DNA of 64,000 nt from positions 26,160,345 through 26,224,344 of the forward strand of contig NC_134028.1 in the NCBI RefSeq assembly GCF_964204645.1, read 5' to 3'. The notes below the pieces were generated by a model that searched no databases, had not been told where the DNA came from, and worked only from the letters and a program-made list of their open reading frames with translations. Positions 3,552-48,665 of this stretch are shown here, in pieces (position 1 is the first letter of the stretch; each line of letters begins with the position of its first letter). The translations under genes were made by a program, and so were the position numbers. The stretch is from Tubulanus polymorphus (taxonomy: Eukaryota > Animalia > Nemertea).

Positions 3552-4565
3552 TTACCTTCTGAAAGCCAATGAGCGAAATTTTTTGCTCGAAAAACAGTAA
3601 ACAAAGAAATTGACTGATGAGTTCAATTGTACGAGTAAGTAACTGATTTCGAACATTCGTAGATTGACTTTGAATTGAATGGCAGTTTTTTGTAACGCCA
3701 TCGGAAACTCGAATAGAATATACGTGGTTATGATTGCGATCGCGAGTATAAAAGCCTGGCGGTCGTTCGGGGCTTTAACGCCTGTCATTAGCTGGCGTTT
3801 CTTCGACGCTTCGGTCAACGACAAAATCAAGATGAAATTCGCCTTGAAGATCAAAGCAAAAGGAATGAGTATACAGAATGCCAAATGAACGAGTTGTCTA
3901 ATTTTCGGTGGATCGATGGGCACATTTTTTGTAATCCACACGTATTTAACTACCGGGCAAATAGTGCGCGCCATGGTTTGGATTCTGAAGAAATAACGCC
4001 AGATTTGAGTTACGATACTTAAAAATACAATACTTAACATGCATATATTACAGTTGGACTTAGTGCAGATGAGTCTAGACTTTAACGGATAGATCACAAT
4101 GATCGCTCGCTCTAAACTAATCAAAGTTGTCAGTAGATTTCTGATCATTTTGAAAATGATTTGAAGGCTCACTGTGTAGTGGTAGATTTGAGCTCCGAAA
4201 AACAACGGCACCGTCAAATACGCCCCGTCGCCGAGTTCTAACAGACCGCTGACGTATCTACCGGAATACGCCAGCGCTGAACTGAGCAAAAACAGATTAT
4301 CAGCGACCGCTAACACTCGTAACAGATGATACGTGACGATAACACGCGATTTGAACCGATATAGAATCGAAAACGTGTAAATATTCAGCAGAAAACCAAC
4401 GATAGAAACTGGCAGCGCTCCGTGTACAAAATATACTATCTTCTGATAGGTTTTCATGTTGAAACTACATTCATCGTTATTGAACGCCTCAGACAAAGTC
4501 GAATTGGTGTCATTTAACTTCATAATGTCGGCTGCATCAGGCGACATATTCGAATTAAAGCCCAT
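3552..4565 (-). CDS. Intronless class A GPCR, FMRFamide/peptide-receptor-like (possibly chemosensory)
   Basis: 337-aa ORF with seven hydrophobic segments. N-terminal N-glycosylation sequons (NMS, NDT, NST). TM1 GFLLN, TM2 LAVADNLFL, TM3 ISLERAIIVIYPLK, TM7 LNSSVNFFVYCFSSKKFR, all typical of FMRFamide-receptor-like 7TMs. Confidence 0.85.
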   Translation of the reverse strand: MGFNSNMSPDAADIMKLNDTNSTLSEAFNNDECSFNMKTYQKIVYFVHGALPVSIVGFLLNIYTFSILYRFKSRVIVTYHLLRVLAVADNLFLLSSALAYSGRYVSGLLELGDGAYLTVPLFFGAQIYHYTVSLQIIFKMIRNLLTTLISLERAIIVIYPLKSRLICTKSNCNICMLSIVFLSIVTQIWRYFFRIQTMARTICPVVKYVWITKNVPIDPPKIRQLVHLAFCILIPFALIFKANFILILSLTEASKKRQLMTGVKAPNDRQAFILAIAIITTYILFEFPMALQKTAIQFKVNLRMFEISYLLVQLNSSVNFFVYCFSSKKFRSLAFRR

Positions 4566-4814
4566 GTTACGCGCATTGTGCGAAATATATTTTCAATTTA
4601 TCTTTATAAAGCCAATGCACATAGTGATAATACAGTATATGGACCTTCAATACACTGACTTAACATTTCATCAAGTTTTTGTGCTATAACTAATGAATCT
4701 TCGTCAAATTCTACCCATGTTGTCTAATTCAATTCGATTTCCATATATATTTTCCTGATGCATCGAGATTAGCTCTAACAAAAACACAATAACCGGGCGC
4801 AATACATATTCCGT

Positions 4815-5864: not shown

Positions 5865-6031
5865 CCTTTATAACGTCTCATTTCTGATGACGAATCGAAT
5901 ATTTCTGACGGTATTTAAAACTATTCTAAAGACTTGGATAAAGGTGGCGACCACCTTTATCCAGAGCTAAGTCTTTAAAATAGACCGTCAGAAATATTTG
6001 ATTCGTCATCAGAAATGAGACGTTATAAAGG
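5865..6031. mobile_element. Foldback/MITE-like near-perfect palindrome
   Basis: ~48-bp terminal inverted arms with one mismatch, plus nested inner arms TGGATAAAGGTGG-cga-CCACCTTTATCCA. Confidence 0.65.
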
Positions 6032-10809: not shown

Positions 10810-12240
10810 ATGTGGTAGGCTTATCAAAGACCCGTTTCGGCAAGATGGCTGCCTCCAGAATAACCAGTCTCGTTACGTATCTACGTTCAAGTCGATCGAT
10901 GACGTCGTTGAGGGCGATTCGTGGAGGCAGCCATATTGGGAGGTTCTATAAATGTTGTCTACCAACCAATGTTTGTATATATCAGCACCAAATATTCACG
11001 ACGATTTATTACGGAGAGGATTGAGAATGTTCGTGTTTTGTGTTTTACCTGAAAATTCGTTCTCAAGTTCATCTTGAGTCGGAGATTTGAATGTTCGATC
11101 ACGAGTGGAATTGAGCGCGCGCGCATTCTTACAGCCCCAAACAGCGATTGAGACGCTGGTGTTTTTCGGTGTTCCAACGCTAAGGTTTGATCCCGTGTTC
11201 CGCTATTAAACCTTTGTTAACCCAACCGATTTTGTGACGTAAACGTAGTGAGGCTTTCGAGAAAAGTGTGTATAACCTTCGTTTGTTTTTGTATAAATCA
11301 TTGAAAACGCTTTATGTAATTACAACGGAAATTGTTGAGAATTTGAAGAATATAGATTTGCCCGTATATTGTATGTAAACAAGAATTGTTCAAATATTAC
11401 TATGTACAAATACTATATTGTTTGTTAACTATAAAGATATTTTCAAAAATGTCCTTTTCAGACAAACTTCGTGTGTTAGTGACGAAATACGATTCGAAAG
11501 ATTAACCCTCTCCCCGTGTGTCTAGTTCAACAGTTTTGAGTTAGAGATCACAATGAGTAAGAATTAGTTCATTTTCAAATTATTTGACTTCGGTTAGATT
11601 CTAACTGACAACTGTTGAACTTTATACAAAAGACGCATGAGTGAAACTACTATTCATGATGAGAAAATACACCCTTTATAACTGTTTAAATTCTGGTTTG
11701 TAAAAAATGAATGTCCCAGCGAGAGCAATTCCCGCATCTACGATTGTGAAAATACAAGTTGTTATATGGATAAGCCGGAGCTTGTTCCGCAGTATTCTGA
11801 GGCGGATCTGCGTACATAACTCACTGCGTCGTTTTCAATCATGAAACGATATAACGAGTCAAATTTTCATTTGTAACACTGTCAAACTGGGTCCTGATGA
11901 CGTACAAAGTGACTCTCCTACAAGTCTGAAAGTTATATACCCCAAATATCCGAGGTTTGGAGTTGTTTCATCTGCTTTTGTCAGTGTGTGTATTAACCGT
12001 ACTTTCTCGATATCAAAGTGAATATTTTTTCAGCCACATCACACATTACTGTGTAAAGATCAGTCACACGCTGTTGTCAATAATTTTGTTAATAAACCAT
12101 TGATAAAATCTGCTGAAATCGCTGAATATTGTTTTCATTTTTTTTTGCAAAGCGGTGAATGCTGAATGGACCTCAGTTGTGATGACTCCAGCAGTGCGTG
12201 CAGAGTTGGGTACTCGAGAGGATGAATGTAATGTTTTGAC

Positions 12241-12475
12241 GACCAGTCACCACACCTGTCTGGTCACCAGTCACCACACCTGTCTGGTCACCAGTCACCA
12301 CACCTGTCTGGTCACCAGTCACCACACCTGTCTGGTCACCAGTCACCACACCTGTCTGGTCACCAGTCACCACACCTGTCTGGTCACCAGTCACCACACC
12401 TGTCTGGTCACCAGTCACCACACCTGTCTGGTCACCAGTCACCACACCTGTCTGGTCACCAGTCACCACACCTGC
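12241..12475. repeat. 24-bp minisatellite, about 10 copies
   Basis: (ACCAGTCACCACACCTGTCTGGTC)n, with essentially perfect copies. Confidence 0.97.
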
Positions 12476-15400
12476 ACTGACCAGATAAACTACCAAACTT
12501 CGTCAATCGCTGCAGTACGCTGTTCTGCCCTTTCCGGGAACATTTTTTTTCAAATGCTTCGCCCACACACAAAACCGTCCCATCAACCTTTAAAATAAAA
12601 GAGGGCATATATTTATGAGTCGTGGCAGATAAATCTTAACAAAAATCCCACCCAGGTGTCCCCAAACTTAGTTTAATGCCTGGAAATTGCACCAAAGAGG
12701 AGTGAATTTTCTAGATGATTTTTCCCGATTGACGTGAATGCTTGTCCGCCCTTTTGTTAAAAGTTGTGCTACCCTCCTTGTTTCTGGTTCGAGCAAGGGA
12801 GTTCGTGCTTAGGGGGTTCGAGGCGACGAAACCGAGTAAATATAGCTACCCTATCAACTAAATATTTCTGTTTTTTCAAGATGTAATTTTGACTAAATTA
12901 TTTTGTTAAGATTTGTAATTTTGATTATCAGTCATACAAGTGTAGTACACACTTTGATTAAGAATAAACTATCATATATACTTAATTATCTTATGATTAA
13001 GATATTTAATTATTATGCGTGGAATTCTTTTAATCGAAACAAAAATAGGTTGAGTCGAACTTTAAGCGCATCAGTAAATACATACATTATATTGATACAA
13101 TCACTATTGGATATAAATGATTTTCCTATATTATAATCCCGTAGCTCATGAATCAATGAATTCGTGAGAGAGATATTTCAGAACATCAAATCACTTTTTA
13201 AGCTCGTTACAAAATCATTAATTTCATCATCACGTTGAAACAAAACACGTCGCTGCAAATAACTAAAATCAGAATCCGATAAGATATCGTAAATCGTTTG
13301 CGTGTGTGTTAAAACAGTGGCTGATTGAAGTGCGGAGACACGAGAATGAAACATTATACCTTTCAACTGCAACGCAATTAAATATCATATTTCAGTGAAA
13401 ATTACACCCTTTAAAGTTGAAAATGACTCTAAACAATATCAAACTAGCAGCGTAACTACACTTAACACGAGTATACGCATACATGTCGTGTGCGTTTATA
13501 GTTCACTCAAGCGAAGTTGAGAACGAATGCTCTTTGAATATCGATAAAACGGTTAGATTGTTTCTTGTGAAAGTTACTTTATTTTTATTAGCCCCTCGTT
13601 TGTACTATATAACAATATCCTCGGGGATACAGGCGTGCCCGAAATACATTGATGAATTTACAGACAGGTCGATAATGACTCCCTGAAATCTTTGAACATT
13701 AAGTTCACTTCGTAATTATTTCCTTCTATCTATTTGATTTGTGAGCGCACAATCTTACAGTGCGTGTTTTGGTCACGGCATCAAGGCTGTAAACAACGAC
13801 ATCAGTAAATTCAAATTAGACCCATAACATTATGCGATGCATTCGATAGATAAATAGTTTCACCAAATCTAACTAAATCACGAAGCAGACTTTCTAATTT
13901 TCGACTACAGAAGTCAATAAATTTCGGGGCCCGATTCCACAGTTTCCACGGATAAGTTCGACGGTCAAAAATCAGTTTATTTCCAATCTCAACAAAATCG
14001 CAACGAATCTACCAATGAATTGGGTCAATCCCTATATTAAGAATTTTATGAATTTTGTCAATTTCATAATTTTTGAGCCAGATCGAGAACAGTGGAACTG
14101 AAGTAACGCGTGGAGGCGTCAGTCTGAACTGTACACGCAGTACGTAGAAGGTACGGGAAGGTCGGTGAATAGAGGTTCACTTCTAAGAGCTAACTGTTCA
14201 GGCGATGAAATAGAAAAAACATATCGCCACGGGTAAGATGAAAGACAATGTAAGATCTAAAGAGAATGGACGACGTGATCAACGCGCAGTGAAAAGCTCA
14301 CATCAAACACGGTGTAATTTAACCAGTCGTTTACGGAGACACGTTACTCACTGTACGATCGGGCATTACTGTTATTTCTATGACGTGTATATTTGTCGAA
14401 CCACGCTCTTCCTGAGCCGCAAATCCTGATCGCAAAACTCGACACCAAATCATTCGCCCGCTTTTATGAAAACGTAAAAGGACACACACATAGCTAAAAA
14501 TCTGTTCTCTTTAAACAAGATATTATTTCATAGGATTGTCTTTTGTTTTCGCCCGGGTGAAATTGTACGCCCTATGTAAGTTGGATGAAACAAAGCTGCC
14601 TTCATCCGGTAATAAGATGACAGATCCGTTCGTTGGATCATGATACAAAGTCCACTAATGGAAAAGACGCGGTGATGTGTAACCCTGCACCCCTCAGATT
14701 ATCGTGACTCTAAGCACGATAGAGTTTAAACCCGTACTTTGAGTAGGTCAATAGTAACCCGTCACATATCGTTGATTTTCTGTATTACATTACATTATTC
14801 TATATATGAAGTTACATATTGTGAATAAAGTCAGATCGTGTTCGGATTCCATCGTTGCGCTCCTTCCTTGTGGTGTCGACGATCACACATGGGCGAACTT
14901 CGGTTTTCGTATCTAGTCGACAAGTGGTCCGAACTAATAACTAGGTCCGAAATAAAGCAACAGTATTCAGAACTTCACCCGAGACATGTTTAATTGAAAA
15001 ATGACGTCAAACATTTTTCAGCACAATATCAAAAACTTATCGTCCACACTTGACACTACATTAGTTATAGTCCGGGATGGGTCGAGGATAGTTCGCTGTG
15101 GATTAGGATTCGTCGAAGATATTTCTATAAAATAGCTAATTACGTAAGAAGGCTAAAATGGAATGATCCATTGCGGTTGGGCGAATTTGCGTGACTTGTC
15201 TTTTCAAGACGAAAGACGGCTGGTATAATCGTGTTAGAAATGTTTCAGTTGATTCTCCGAGAATATTTTCACCGAGCTACGCGTGTGTTAAAGTCGGAAT
15301 AGATTCGCGCATTAAAATTCCATTAAAACGACTGAGACTTCCTGATTTTTAGTTAGTCTGTGACAAGCCATGCTAAGTATGGCCGATGGCACTTTCCAAC

Positions 15401-25921: not shown

Positions 25922-30296
<4,375 letters not shown>

Positions 30297-41584: not shown

Positions 41585-41676
<92 letters not shown>
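41585..41676. repeat. (TA)n microsatellite
   Basis: About 90 bp of uninterrupted AT dinucleotides. Confidence 0.99.
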
Positions 41677-41681
<5 letters not shown>

Positions 41682-42654
41682 CAAAAAATATTACCGGGGA
41701 ATTTCGAAGGGTGCTTTAAATCTAAGACCGTATTGGGCAATACGGCTTCAGTCTGAGTCCACCCCTGATGGCTATAGTGACGATCAAAAAGATTGTTAAT
41801 TTCGCAATTACTCTTCGGCAGCTCAACACTCGCTTCTAATCGGTCGACAAGTGTCAGTGTGTCCGGTATAAAGTGGTGCTGTGAATATAGGGTTGAGAAA
41901 AGAGGTGGATTGCAAGCTAATGAAAACCACTGACTGGTGAACTAACAAAGTTCAGAGAAGCTAATTAACTAAACAAATAAAGACTTTCAAAGAATTATAT
42001 TTACTTTCATACAACAATTATACAAAATGCCAGGCGTGCTCGAGGAATTATAATGGAAGATCCCCAAACACGTGGACTGATGTCAAAAACAATCCAATCA
42101 TGGACGTATAAACTATAAACTAAAGTTTATACGTCGATGGTCAAACCATAGACTATTCTATATAGATTTATTCTATTCTCATGACAAAAATTATACCTCG
42201 CTAAATGACAGGTAGGAATTATCATGTAAGTTCCTTGTTAACAAGTGAACCGTATTTTAAAATCAGCTCAACATAAAAGCATTCAAACTAGAGACAAATC
42301 CTACTGTCTGTCACACCTACTCTCCGTGCGACGTTTTGGTCCGTAATTTCGTTAATAATCGGTTTATCTACCTTTATTATGCATCAATTTGTTCAGCGAG
42401 GAATTTGCATTCAGAAATAAAGTTTTCCCCATATATATTATACCAGATAGAGCCCTAGACACTATTTTATACATCTTTCCCCCAGGAATTCATTAATGCG
42501 ATGGGTAAAAGTAACTTAAACTTAACTTTCAGTATTGCTGAGTTCAGTGTTCTTTTTTCGCCATCTTCTTCATTGTAGTCGCCTTCAGCATCTTCTTCTT
42601 CATCTTGCGAGTCCTGAAATGAAAAAAAAGAGAAGAGCGATGAAAACCTGGTAA

Positions 42655-43344
42655 GGAACAAAACTAATGTTCGAAAGCTTTTCAGCTCTCCGTCGCCTGT
42701 CACATGCCGAGAACACCAGACAATGAGCCAGCCAGGAATATACTGCCCTCTACACGCCCTAACACAGAACGCGAAACCCAGGATGAAGACACCTTACTTT
42801 CACCATTTACCGACAGGGTGTGCCGGGTGACGTCAGTAACTGACATACCTGCAAGATTGTTTGTGACAAAAATAGAGTAGCGCAACTGGATTGCCCGCAC
42901 TAGCACTCAAAGGAAGGCAAGACTTATCCCTGCCCGAAGCAACCCACTGGGAATCAATGAATACTAACACTCAAAGGAAGACAGGGAAATTAATCCCTGC
43001 CCGAAGCAATCCCTTAAAAGGAATCAATGAATGCTAGAACGCAAGGGAAGGCAGAGAAAAATCTTTGCCCGAAGCAATTCCTGAAAAGGAATCAATGAAT
43101 ACCAGTAGACAGTCCAGCTTTACCACTCCATTTTCACCGCAAACAATCCGACAGATCTGCCAGTCATTGACGTCACCTAGCACACTGTTGATAGGTGGGG
43201 AGAGTGAGGCCTCGTCATCTTGGATTTCGTGTTCCATATGAGGGCGTGTAGAGGGCAACCATTTCCTGACCGACTCTTTCTCTGACATCCTCGACACGTG
43301 ACCGGCGAAGGAGAGCCGACGCTTTCAGACATTAGTTTTGTTCC
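42655..43344 (-). ncRNA. Candidate long hairpin RNA: inverted repeat with a structured triple-repeat loop
   Basis: Arms at 42655-42895 and 43108-43344 are reverse complements with about 75% identity. The loop contains three copies of a ~65-nt unit. The inverted repeat is certain; transcription is inferred. Confidence 0.5.
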
Positions 43345-45206
43345 AGCAAACGTTGAAATTCGACAGAGAAATCGGCCCTGAAAAATAAAACGGGTTAGAA
43401 CCTGCAAAAAAGAACGGGTTAATAAACACAGAACAGTGCAGGACAGCACAGAGACGAACAGTAACACATAAAACATAAAGACGTCGTTCCTCAGGAAGCA
43501 GGAACAGGAGCAGGAGCGGGAGCGCAGCGAAAATCGCCAGGAGGAGAAGGTAGCATGTTCACAGTGTGAGTGTGCAGAGGTGAATGGCCTATGCTTGTGT
43601 ACACCGTGGTCAGCCGGTGACGTATTCAATAGCGCGTAGAATGCTATCAACAACTTTGAAAAACCTCAATTGTGTCTCTATTGTTGAATTGAATTTCAAT
43701 TGAGAGCTTATAGAAGGTTCTACTGCCGGGTTGTACGCGCCAGTAGCCAGCTGAACAATATCGTGGAACTTTAAGGCCATATAAAATAAATTACTCGATT
43801 CTCAACAGCTCGTCTCTCGAATTTAGCGCCGCCTGGTTTTTTCAGTCTGTTCCGGTCGTTTTTTATATGCTACACTCTTCGAGCGTCAAGTTGATCGTTC
43901 GTCTGGGGTCCTAATTAGCCTGCTGGGCATGAAAAATGAAACCGAGTTCTATTTAAAGGGTCACAGTCATATAATAAACACAGAATTAAATAAACCTTTT
44001 AAACGGAGCAGTGACTTAGACCCGGACGCCGCCAACACAGACTCCGATACCGCCTAAATTGACAGAGGAATTCAGTCATAGTATTAACTATTCAAAACAA
44101 AAATTAGTCTCAGTTGCGTTTTCATTGCTTTCACGCCCAGTTTACAGTTTCAATTAGTGAAAGATTTCATATGATTACTTCTAAGAATATGGTCACCACT
44201 CTGACAAGACAATTAAACTATCTGATAGTGTCTATCATAATAATTCGGTGGGGTAGGGCTAGCCTGGTTGGTTTAACCTACGATCAAGTATCTAACTATT
44301 GCTTGTAGGTTTAACACGCTTGCTAGAGAGCTGCTGGGTTCGATCTCTGGATGGGCTCGAGTTTTTTTTCTAATAATCCGAATCCCAAGGTATCATCGTA
44401 AGTGATGTGAAAACCTGGTGACCTGCGTGTGGTTAGTTTCACCTAAGAGCAATTATCAAATAGATTAGATAATTGCTCGTAGGTTTCACGATCAAAATCC
44501 CATCCATTCTTTTATAAAAGCTTTTAGCACCATAACGATTAGGTAACTAATGATCTAATATGCTAGACCTGGTAATCCTGCAATCAAGTTGTAAACTCTC
44601 AGACGAGCTCTGATTATCTGGCATCGGGTGATGGTGAAAACACTCTCGACAGTGAAATATATTTTGGCTCATTTCATTCGAGGATTAATGCGATTTCTTT
44701 CCATTAAAACATTACAACACTCCTTTTTTCTTCCCCTTCAAACCGCAACGGTCCTGGGCAAATAGCAATATAGTAATTATACAAAGTATATAATACATAT
44801 CTAAAGTCTGAAGGACAGATCGTATTTCTGTAATTAATTAGCGCAGGAAAAAGTCTTTCTTTTCTCTAGTGCATTTTCCAAACAGGGGATAAGATTTCAA
44901 TGAAGTAAAGTAGGACTGTGTTTAAGTAATATGATACACAGCTGCCATCACTAAAAATGCTGTGGGGGTGCCAGTGCATACATAGAACACCGCTCACTGT
45001 GTAGACAGTGAAAGCGGAGTCTGAGAGCTGCAAAATAGCATCACGTGCTACAGCCCTCCAATCAGCTAGTCCATCTCTAAAACATCAGCAACTGGGGAAG
45101 ATGCCAACACAAGAAAGTTCCTACGAGAAAACTTTCTGAACTATTTTTACGGAGCGGTGCAACAGGAAATTGACGACGGTCCGGCGAGGATCGAATCCAG
45201 GTAAAG

Positions 45207-47225
<2,019 letters not shown>

Positions 47226-48558
47226 GAAATCGGTAGACCGTACCAGAAACCCGTTTACAGAGAGGTCTAGACACTTTCCAGAGTCAGGATGACAAAGATA
47301 TATTGAAGTTATGAGATTTATATTCCCATCAATGAAAAAAAGTGAATCCTCTATAGTTTTCAATACATTTTAGCTTCATTATTTCTATCAACCATACCGT
47401 GTATAATAACCTCTTAGAAACACAAGGTAATTCTTCATAAACTCTGGAAGGCGAAGAACATCCGATCTTCAGTTAAGGGGTTCCCTTATTTAAGAACCGC
47501 TGCAAGTTAATTAAATCTGGTTTTAGGTTTCATAATCCTAAGCAAGTAAGCAAGTCTAAGAAGTTATATTAAACTCTGAAGTTTTCTAATAATTCTTTGT
47601 AGATAAAAAACGTATAGATTATAGATTTTAGTTCCCGAATATCTATCCTTATACTCTATTAAATGAATGTGTATTTGATTTTATAGTGTTGATCCCTTGT
47701 GCCGGGATGGTGTTGGTATTATGCATGCTCAATATATTATGGCGTATAGCTCCATATGTTATAGGTAACAACGTCGTATTATTATTTTCAGTCTATTGTA
47801 TGTAAATTTTTGCTGGTTTCTTCTTTTTAAAATTGACCAATGAGAAATAGATAAATTAATGAGATTATGAAAGACATGTATTTGTGTATATTTGGCAAGT
47901 TATTAATTATACAGTTATTAATTAAAAAAAGCGAACTGAAAGTTCTTCTACTAATTTGTAGCTTTTTGTCGTCGATTCCAAAAATCTCTGAAATCGTTTA
48001 TGATTTTATGAGTTACGAAGAAAATAGTTTTAACACACACACACACACATACAAATAAGTGATCAAAATCGTTTTAATTAAACTGATTCTGTGAAATATA
48101 TATATTTGAATTGGGTTGTATCGGGTGGATGGGAGAAGATAGGGTCTTGAGTGAATGCAATCTGGATTGATGAAATAACTATGAAATACAGTGGTTGTGA
48201 ATTTAATGATCATGAAAGTATTCCAGCGTTTTGCTTTCTGTATATTATAGGTTTTTCCGCTGTGGTTTTTTTTCTGTATATATTTTAGTTTGATGATATA
48301 TGAGTTATAATGATATTATTTGCAGTGAAGGATGTATGAATATGTGTATTTTTAGCTGTTAAGTGTATCGTATCAAGTTCTGCTGCAGTTGCTGCTGTAT
48401 GATGATACAAGCCACTACTGATGCGGTGTATTTGGGTTATCATTCAATTTCAACTGATACATGAATTTATTCAGGGGTTTGTTTTATAGATAGGTATTAT
48501 ATTTAACCTGGTTGGGGATGGGGGTTAACTCAATTGAAAATGAATTGAGTTAGCCCTG

Positions 48559-48665
48559 GGCCCAGTTTCACAAAAAGGTTTAACTCTTAAATCGATTTAT
48601 TTAATTCATTAATTCAGTTTATCTTAAATTGATTTAGGCCTTAATCCTTCTTGTGAAACTGGGCC
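48559..48665. mobile_element. Harbinger-like MITE in the putative ZCCHC24 3'UTR
   Basis: TIRs GGCCCAGTTTCACAA and TTGTGAAACTGGGCC, with flanks CTG and TTG. Confidence 0.7.

What the first reader, a model, noticed from the sequence alone, without database searches (positions are those of the whole stretch)
42898..43105. Three tandem copies of a three-way-junction RNA motif in the hairpin loop
Seen on the minus strand: each ~65-nt unit reads AGYAUUCA-UUG-[AUUCC..GGRU stem-loop]-GCUUCG-[GGCAG..UGYC stem-loop]-UUCCYU-UGAGUGYU, and the outer segments pair (weakest in the first copy). The junction strings are almost invariant, while loops and stem interiors vary but largely keep pairing: GGCAAAGA-uuuu-UCUCUGCC, GGCAGGGA-uuaauu-UCCCUGUC and GGCAGGG-auaag-UCUUGCC. 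Conserved junctions with variable loops suggest a functional RNA fold rather than a satellite. The unit lacks the hammerhead CUGAnGA/GAAA core and matches no family I recognise. Inference: a repeated protein-binding, export or processing module, or an unknown ribozyme.
Basis: partly seen in the sequence, partly recalled or inferred. Interest (0 to 1): 0.8.

Follow-up and report, generated by a model that had tools for sequence, protein, structure and literature searches.

The report
Branched RNA cap of worm repeat
The three look-alike units are the branched tip of a roughly 245-base-pair fold-back hairpin inside a roughly 2.5-kb multi-copy repeat of a ribbon worm; they likely act as a protein-binding RNA handle for a probably mobile element, match no catalogued RNA family, and have not been shown to be transcribed.

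Summary
Three 64-70-nt units lie at 42902-43103 on the minus strand, as reported. They are the tip of a ~245-bp imperfect hairpin (42655-43344) whose G·U pairs outnumber A·C 37 to 13 on that strand (p=0.0009). Contigs of four public runs show that hairpin and units belong to a ~2.5-kb multi-copy repeat (about 41677-44169) of a nemertean; a window exon is 99% identical to a protein labelled Tubulanus polymorphus. In other copies, 7 of 8 stem substitutions in the units keep pairing, loops vary freely, unit number varies, and one unit type lacks the second hairpin. No Rfam family, hammerhead core, terminal inverted repeats or transposase was found, and expression is untested. Best reading (0.45): a copy-number-variable, protein-binding RNA cap on the transcript of a non-autonomous mobile element, built like retroviral export elements but not one of them. 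Rivals: small-RNA precursor hairpin (0.2), fold-back kept by arm-to-arm copying or editing with no selected junction (0.2), ssDNA structure (0.1), ribozyme (0.05).

The parts
41677..44169 (.). Multi-copy repeat element, about 2.5 kb; ends approximate; begins TG after an (AT)n tract and ends CA; no terminal inverted repeats
   Evidence: 304-1019 contigs per run laid on 41700-44700; summed depth in X1 up to 11,775-14,474 in core bins against about 39 for the unique contig that starts at 44141; no TIR between the ends; end letters read. Left end not bracketed by any contig.
43096..43344 (-). 5' arm of the long hairpin
   Evidence: 179 of 244 aligned positions Watson-Crick, 37 G·U, 13 A·C, 15 other
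42655..42909 (-). 3' arm of the long hairpin
43036..43103 (-). Unit 1 (weak own P1; its 5' strand is predicted to extend the long stem by pairing with unit 3's 3' strand)
42966..43035 (-). Unit 2, the one predicted to fold as a full three-way junction; no substitution row in the laid copies
42902..42965 (-). Unit 3
43378..43422 (-). Two tandem branch-point + pyrimidine tract + CAG sites (3' splice-site-like), 40-80 nt before the hairpin, in one of the most deeply covered parts of the family
   Evidence: 2 of 14 such sites in the whole window, both on the minus strand here; depth; use not shown
43861..43867 (-). TATA-like box (sequence motif only)
   Evidence: similar motifs also occur on the plus strand, so weak
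43789..43796 (-). 5' splice-site-like motif (sequence motif only)
42167..42378 (-). Two AAUAAA motifs (42378 and 42172) downstream of the hairpin
   Evidence: AATAAA also occurs 6 times on the plus strand of the element, so weak
41585..41676 (.). (AT)46 tract abutting the element's left end; possible insertion target

Best explanation
The three units are a tandem expansion of one Y-shaped tip on a ~245-bp minus-strand hairpin inside a ~2.5-kb multi-copy repeat, and they likely work as a protein-binding RNA cap on the predicted transcript of a probably non-autonomous mobile element. SHOWN: units, hairpin, strand-specific G·U excess, multi-copy context, variable unit number, and mostly pair-preserving variation among copies. 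INFERRED: (1) the element is transcribed on the minus strand (splice-site-like, TATA-like and poly(A)-like motifs); (2) the long stem folds the RNA into a rod and presents the tip; (3) because each unit starts and ends with the two strands of the closing helix, slippage or unequal exchange adds or removes whole units without breaking the rod, changing the number of binding sites; (4) a host or helper-element protein binds the P1-P2(-P3) junctions and routes the RNA (export of unspliced RNA, germ-line transport or packaging), as the long-stem-plus-branched-head of retroviral export elements does. Steps 1-4 are untested and the protein is unknown.
For: G·U:A·C = 37:13 between the arms, p=0.0009; 17:3 outer and 20:10 inner; the other 8 inverted-repeat hits in the window have at most 10 such mismatches each and show no common direction. 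Multi-copy family. Of 15 arm substitution rows among the 40 shown (of 310), 7 turn a window mismatch or G·U into Watson-Crick, 3 turn Watson-Crick into G·U, 5 break singly, and 3 of those 5 are restored by letters seen on the partner arm. In the units, 7 of 8 stem rows keep a pair, 2 of them through a partner change in the same contig, so P3 pair 3 is seen as G-C, G·U and A-U; 6 of 7 loop rows are transversions against 1 of 8 stem rows (p=0.01); 6 of 14 unit-3 rows fall in 10 of 64 loop bases (p=0.014). A joint seen in X1 and X3, with matching loose ends in X2 and X4, shows a further unit type with P1-P2 only between unit-2-like units. Splice-site-like pair on the structured strand. Nemerteans lack DICER2 and one sampled species lacked the endo-siRNA signature (PMC11114477, passages), which lowers the siRNA rival.
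Against: No RNA evidence at all. No binding protein, helper element, transposase or reverse transcriptase was found (12 element frames, no Pfam hit at cut-off). Only unit 2 is predicted to fold as a junction in this copy. Covariation among the window's three units is not significant. About two thirds of random transitions at paired sites keep a pair anyway (78 of 116, computed with two P2 anchors off by one), and variant rows share ancestry. All four runs are one study and at most two samples, and the tables show only the best-supported rows. Depth over the units is far lower than over the outer arms (343-1,616 against about 12,000 in X1), so most family members have a different or more diverged tip. 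Whether the partner-arm changes lie on one molecule is not shown. Mobility (polymorphic insertions, target duplications) is not shown.
Confidence: 0.45

Rival explanations
1. The element is an amplified hairpin-RNA (small-RNA precursor) gene: a spliced Pol II transcript whose long stem is cut into small RNAs, with the Y-shaped tip as a stabilising cap or processing signal.
For: Long imperfect fold-back with G·U bias; 145 of 235 21-nt windows have 18 or more pairs without a gap; splice-site-like motifs. Drosophila hpRNAs are spliced, capped, polyadenylated and can be multi-copy (PMC10317233, passages). Most nemerteans sampled keep an siAGO (PMC11114477).
Against: No DICER2 in Nemertea and no endo-siRNA signature in Notospermus (this species itself not checked). 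Inner-arm sequence changes between subfamilies while pairing is kept, which fits a structural rather than a guide role. No target found: the 162-aa frame over the 5' arm has no relative and arm differences show no codon periodicity (27/19/19, p=0.37).
Confidence: 0.2
2. A fold-back repeat whose arms are kept alike by arm-to-arm copying (gene conversion or template switching), with the G·U excess written by strand-biased deamination or A-to-I editing of an intermediate; the units are a minisatellite of a self-complementary tip with no selected junction function.
For: Arm-to-arm copying explains multi-letter matched changes such as 43141-43143 with 42860-42862. A-to-I editing followed by copying would raise G·U and remove A·C without selection (established biochemistry; inference here). 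Unit number varies and P3 can be lost. Two of three units misfold in context. Three of four window-private C-to-U changes on the minus strand lie in CpG context (my reading).
Against: Arm copying does not reach the small helices inside the units, where stems take transitions that keep pairs and loops take transversions. Window-private arm changes seen are not A-to-G. Unit 2 shows no substitution row despite deep cover.
Confidence: 0.2
3. The structure acts in single-stranded DNA, as a replication or transposition signal of a DNA element, with G·T wobble instead of G·U.
For: No joint in the DNA-like runs removes a putative intron, so copies were not made from spliced RNA. DNA-parameter folding also favours the minus strand (-150.2 vs -136.6).
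Against: The hairpin is internal, 0.8-1 kb from either end. Splice-site-like motifs lie on the same strand. The strand gap is much larger under RNA parameters.
Confidence: 0.1
4. Each unit is an undescribed self-cleaving ribozyme that processes the element's RNA.
For: Size, three-helix layout and near-invariant junctions resemble small ribozymes in general; tandem ribozymes occur in animal retroelements (recalled, not from a call).
Against: No Rfam hit even at E 10; no CUGAnGA...GAAA in the element (0 of 5 window matches); junctions are U/C-rich; a common unit type lacks P3; cleavage of every unit would cut the rod apart.
Confidence: 0.05

Closest known systems
Retroviral and retrotransposon RNA export elements (HIV-1 RRE; CTE-type elements such as MPMV CTE, MusD MTE, the SERV-K MER11 element)
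   Same: A long bulged stem topped by a branched head that includes a three-way junction, lying in an RNA with splice sites (RRE architecture from PMC4488727, passages; CTE diversity from PMC11379458, passages).
   Different: No sequence relation tested or seen. The stem here is about 245 bp, longer than the whole-RRE stem; the head is a tandem array of variable number; junctions are pyrimidine-rich where Rev sites are purine-rich; no cognate protein or retroviral gene is known; function untested.
Drosophila hairpin RNAs (hpRNAs) that give endo-siRNAs
   Same: Long imperfect fold-back in what looks like a spliced transcription unit; multi-copy (PMC10317233, passages).
   Different: Those depend on Dicer-2, which Nemertea lack; no target or small RNA is shown here; a conserved, repeated branched tip was not seen in the passages read.
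Non-autonomous LTR derivatives (solo LTR, LARD, TRIM) and retrozymes (recalled, not from a call)
   Same: Gene-less repeat of a few kb, TG...CA-like ends, promoter-like and poly(A)-like motifs, strong RNA structure.
   Different: No second LTR, primer-binding site or internal region seen next to this copy; no hammerhead; target duplication cannot be read because of the (AT)n flank.
Dada DNA transposons
   Same: Lack terminal inverted repeats (PMC3706591, passages).
   Different: Dada elements sit in small-RNA genes with 6-7-bp duplications; no such gene flanks this copy and no transposase is present.

Membership tests
Hammerhead ribozyme | CUGAnGA and GAAA core around three helices | tested here: not met
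   0 of 5 window matches lie in the element; no Rfam hit
Any Rfam family (twister, HDV-like, pistol, hatchet, cis-elements included) | covariance-model score at gathering threshold | tested here: not met
   0 hits in the window; 4 hits at E 2.4-5.4, all far below threshold
Self-cleaving ribozyme (unknown class) | site-specific self-cleavage | not testable with these tools
   needs an in vitro assay
Drosophila-type hpRNA | long imperfect intramolecular duplex | tested here: met
Drosophila-type hpRNA | spliced, polyadenylated Pol II transcript | tested here: inconclusive
   sequence motifs only
Drosophila-type hpRNA | Dicer-2-dependent phased siRNAs with a target | not testable with these tools
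   no small-RNA data; phylum reported to lack DICER2
RRE/CTE-type export element | long stem with multi-branched head | tested here: met
   predicted fold only
RRE/CTE-type export element | purine-rich widened-groove binding loops (RRE) | tested here: not met
   junctions read UU, GCUUC, UCCYU against the description
RRE/CTE-type export element | promotes export of unspliced RNA; cognate protein | not testable with these tools
   needs a reporter assay
MITE / TIR DNA transposon | terminal inverted repeats | tested here: not met
   longest match between the two end regions 8 nt, none at the termini; ends are approximate
Solo LTR / LTR derivative | TG...CA termini with 4-6-bp target duplication | tested here: inconclusive
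   TG and CA are present at the inferred ends, flanks TATA and TATG; left end not bracketed; AT tract obscures the duplication
Solo LTR / LTR derivative | other copies flank an internal region with PBS, PPT, gag/pol | not testable with these tools
   host genome not held
Dada transposon | insertion in an snRNA or tRNA gene with 6-7-bp duplication | tested here: not met
   no tRNA or Rfam RNA gene at the flanks

The most novel reading that the evidence does not exclude
An undescribed kind of animal mobile element: a gene-less, intron-bearing transcription unit that travels as unspliced RNA by means of a 245-bp rod capped with a copy-number-variable array of three-way junctions, a new RNA motif that recruits a host or helper-element transport protein, with the number of junctions tuning how well each copy spreads.
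Probability: 0.2. Interest if true: 0.75.

Novelty: new variant of a known kind. Interest (0 to 1): 0.48.

Why it matters
Structured cis-elements of non-autonomous repeats are known mainly from vertebrate retroviruses, flies and plants. A compact 70-nt junction motif that is naturally present in varying numbers and variants across many genomic copies is directly testable: the genome itself supplies the alignment for covariation, and unit 2 is small enough for probing and pull-down. It would also show what a long G·U-rich duplex does in a lineage reported to have lost DICER2 but kept an siRNA-type Argonaute. If the neutral rival holds, it is an ordinary fold-back repeat with a minisatellite tip.

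Tried and rejected
Own-genome search: no genome held, so no full copies could be aligned. Pattern scans: viral contigs 0 hits twice, prokaryote genomes 0, metagenomes 5 hits that lack the unit's flanks and fold and score at most 14 bits with the model: chance. Phage records: one 54-nt match, 2% cover: rejected. Coding capacity: 12 element frames, no Pfam family at cut-off (best UbiA E 0.1); the 56-codon frame at 43610-43780 has no homologue among 30-98-aa proteins, one 22-residue viral match not examined further (L006), and Atlas look-alikes at 0.87-0.93 without alignment, a lead only; the hydrophobic 77-aa frame scored 0.76; the 162-aa frame had 0 hits in 1.84 billion proteins. The GPCR search for host identity found nothing; the Lgl exon did. 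HDV-like and twister folds on the plus strand and an alternative cUUCGg hairpin were considered by eye from recalled motifs; none was supported and P3 variation favours the drawn P3. A splice-acceptor role for the P2 loops was rejected because the AG of unit 3 is changed in all X1 depth at 42948. One search used P2 anchors off by one for units 1 and 2; corrected. Earlier findings by place and sequence: none. Paper searches listed no description of this repeat or motif; Dfam, Repbase and the host's RefSeq RNA annotation could not be searched.

Full report
Observation. The three units are real. They lie head to tail at 43103-43036, 43035-42966 and 42965-42902 on the minus strand, 64-70 nt apart. 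Each can be drawn with three helices and short U/C-rich junctions, 59 of 62 cells pairing. A covariance model built from them finds only these three in the window. No Rfam family matches at threshold or at E 10 in any credible way, and no hammerhead core lies in the element.

What the window alone does not support. Among the three copies there is one two-sided change, which is no more than shuffles give (274 of 500; covariation 195 of 500). Only unit 2 folds better than shuffled sequence on its own. In context only unit 2 keeps its junction; the 5' strand of unit 1 pairs with the 3' strand of unit 3 and so continues the long stem. Three separate junctions cost about 24 kcal/mol against the free fold, and a fold that keeps every P2 and P3 costs about 10. 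The layout therefore reads as one Y-shaped hairpin tip that was duplicated in tandem.

The hairpin. The units are the loop of an imperfect inverted repeat of about 245 bp (42655-43344). Of 244 aligned positions 179 are Watson-Crick; of the transition mismatches 37 read G·U and 13 A·C on the minus strand (p=0.0009). The minus strand folds to -384.7 kcal/mol and the plus strand to -294.7. A neutrally decaying DNA palindrome has no reason to prefer one strand, so either the minus-strand fold is selected or a strand-biased process acted on an intermediate. Arm differences show no codon periodicity.

Host and context. The window is from an animal: one exon is 99% identical to a protein that its source labels Tubulanus polymorphus, and the next of the 76 hits is at 68%. 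The genome is not held. Four public runs of one study and at most two samples hold 20-30% of the words. Their kind is not on record; they behave like DNA, because an intergenic flank is covered by one long contig and no listed joint has splice ends. Laid on 41700-44700 they give 304-1019 contigs each. In X1 the summed depth is 11,775-14,474 over the outer arms and the splice-site-like region, 343-1,616 over the units, and about 39 on the unique contig that begins at 44141. The tool warns that summed depth is no copy number; I take it only as showing many copies, with tens resembling this tip. A unique 2.5-kb contig abuts unit 2 at 43014, which points to a truncated copy elsewhere. The right end is inferred near 44169 from where the unique contig stops; the left end is placed at the (AT)n tract at 41676 without a bracketing contig. 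The inferred ends read TG and CA. There are no terminal inverted repeats and no transposase or RT frame.

Variation in other copies. Arms: of the 15 substitution rows inside the arms among the 40 shown (270 not shown), 7 improve a window mismatch or G·U to Watson-Crick, 3 change Watson-Crick to G·U and 5 break a pair singly. Three of the 5 (43141-43143) are matched by letters on the other arm, seen as a variant row and a loose end, giving three Watson-Crick pairs; phase is not shown, and arm-to-arm copying would give the same picture. Units: of 18 substitution rows, 8 are in stems, 7 in loops and 3 in junctions. Seven of the 8 stem rows keep a pair, two through a partner change in the same contig, so that P3 pair 3 occurs as G-C, G·U and A-U in both unit-1-like and unit-3-like copies; one row (42930) breaks a pair. 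Loops take transversions (6 of 7) and stems do not (1 of 8; p=0.01); unit-3 rows are enriched in loops (p=0.014). These p-values ignore shared ancestry, and about two thirds of random transitions keep a pair, so this is moderate support. Unit 2 has no substitution row. A joint from 43045 back to 42951 with 12 other letters (X1, X3; loose ends in X2, X4) shows a further unit type between unit-2-like units: by my reading of tables 5c, 7 and 8 it keeps P1 and P2 and lacks P3. Unit number and type thus vary between copies. One X4 contig with 7 substitutions and 2 gaps carries the only change in the UU junction and looks decayed; it is counted in the rows above.

Transcription signals. On the structured strand there is a TATA-like box at 43867, a donor-like motif at 43794, two tandem branch-point-plus-acceptor motifs ending at 43402 and 43378, and AAUAAA at 42378 and 42172. 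The acceptor pair is 2 of 14 such sites in the window and lies in a deeply covered part of the family. TATA-like and AATAAA motifs occur on the plus strand too, so they are weak. No joint removes a putative intron, so copies did not arise from spliced RNA. Expression was not tested.

Mechanism. I commit to the reading that the tip is a protein-binding cap on the RNA of a non-autonomous mobile element (0.45). The shown parts are the fold's strand bias, its conservation pattern and the multi-copy context. Transcription, mobility, the protein and the route (export, transport or packaging) are inferred by analogy with the RRE, whose long bulged stem carries a branched head with a three-way junction (PMC4488727, passages), and with CTE-type elements, which share no sequence but are multi-stem folds (PMC11379458, passages). 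It is not a member of either: its junctions are pyrimidine-rich and no cognate protein is known. The hpRNA rival (0.2) fits the long duplex and splice signals (PMC10317233, passages) but Nemertea are reported to lack DICER2, and Notospermus small RNAs lacked the endo-siRNA signature, though siAGO is kept (PMC11114477, passages). The neutral rival (0.2), arm copying plus editing or deamination, explains the arms but less well the small helices; an earlier AI note on a bacterial repeat (e1-8140813) raised arm copying, and another (e1-9997189) describes a bacterial fold-back with an unexplained forked tip; neither is support. ssDNA structure (0.1) and ribozyme (0.05) are less likely.

Novelty and verdict. 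Six paper searches (listings and abstract starts only) showed no description of this repeat or motif; Dfam, Repbase and the host's own annotation could not be checked, and no supplements were read. Dada transposons were compared from passages of PMC3706591 and rejected. The finding is a real, partly conserved RNA-like motif with no family, in an apparently undescribed repeat of uncertain class: a new variant of a known kind, interest 0.48. The boldest reading not excluded, a new kind of RNA-routed element with a tunable junction array, has probability about 0.2 and would merit 0.75.

Noticed in passing
window 42300-42421: A 120-nt stretch inside the element is about 84% alike to a far more abundant repeat (summed depth 67,727 in X1; contigs run on unlike at both sides): probably a piece of another repeat family.
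   Followed up: no
window 43610-43780 (-): 56-codon ATG frame just downstream of the TATA-like box; protein-like by Atlas recognition (2706) with weak SCP2-family look-alikes, but no Pfam or sequence homologue. Indels in other copies fall inside it.
   Followed up: partly
window 43325-43558 (-): Open frame without a start codon whose first part is strongly hydrophobic, like a signal or membrane segment; no family match. Copies differ by indels in this region.
   Followed up: partly
window 42526-42612 (-): Acidic-codon-rich stretch right after an acceptor-like site at 42614; a 5-nt deletion in part of the copies argues against a constrained frame.
   Followed up: no
window 45207-47300 (+): Multi-exon gene with zf-CCHC_2 and Zn_ribbon_3CxxC_2 domains, ZCCHC24-like by recall, starting about 1 kb from the element's right end on the opposite strand.
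   Followed up: partly
window 44250-44370 (+): Stretch with A-box- and B-box-like motifs and a T run, like a tRNA-derived SINE (by eye, recalled motifs); ARAGORN calls no tRNA.
   Followed up: no
window 3552-4592 (-): Single-exon 7tm_1 receptor frame of 346 codons with no relative at E 0.001 in the word-seeded search.
   Followed up: partly
window 5865-6031, 28346-28444, 48559-48665, 44441-44484: Other short palindromic repeats, MITE-like in size.
   Followed up: no
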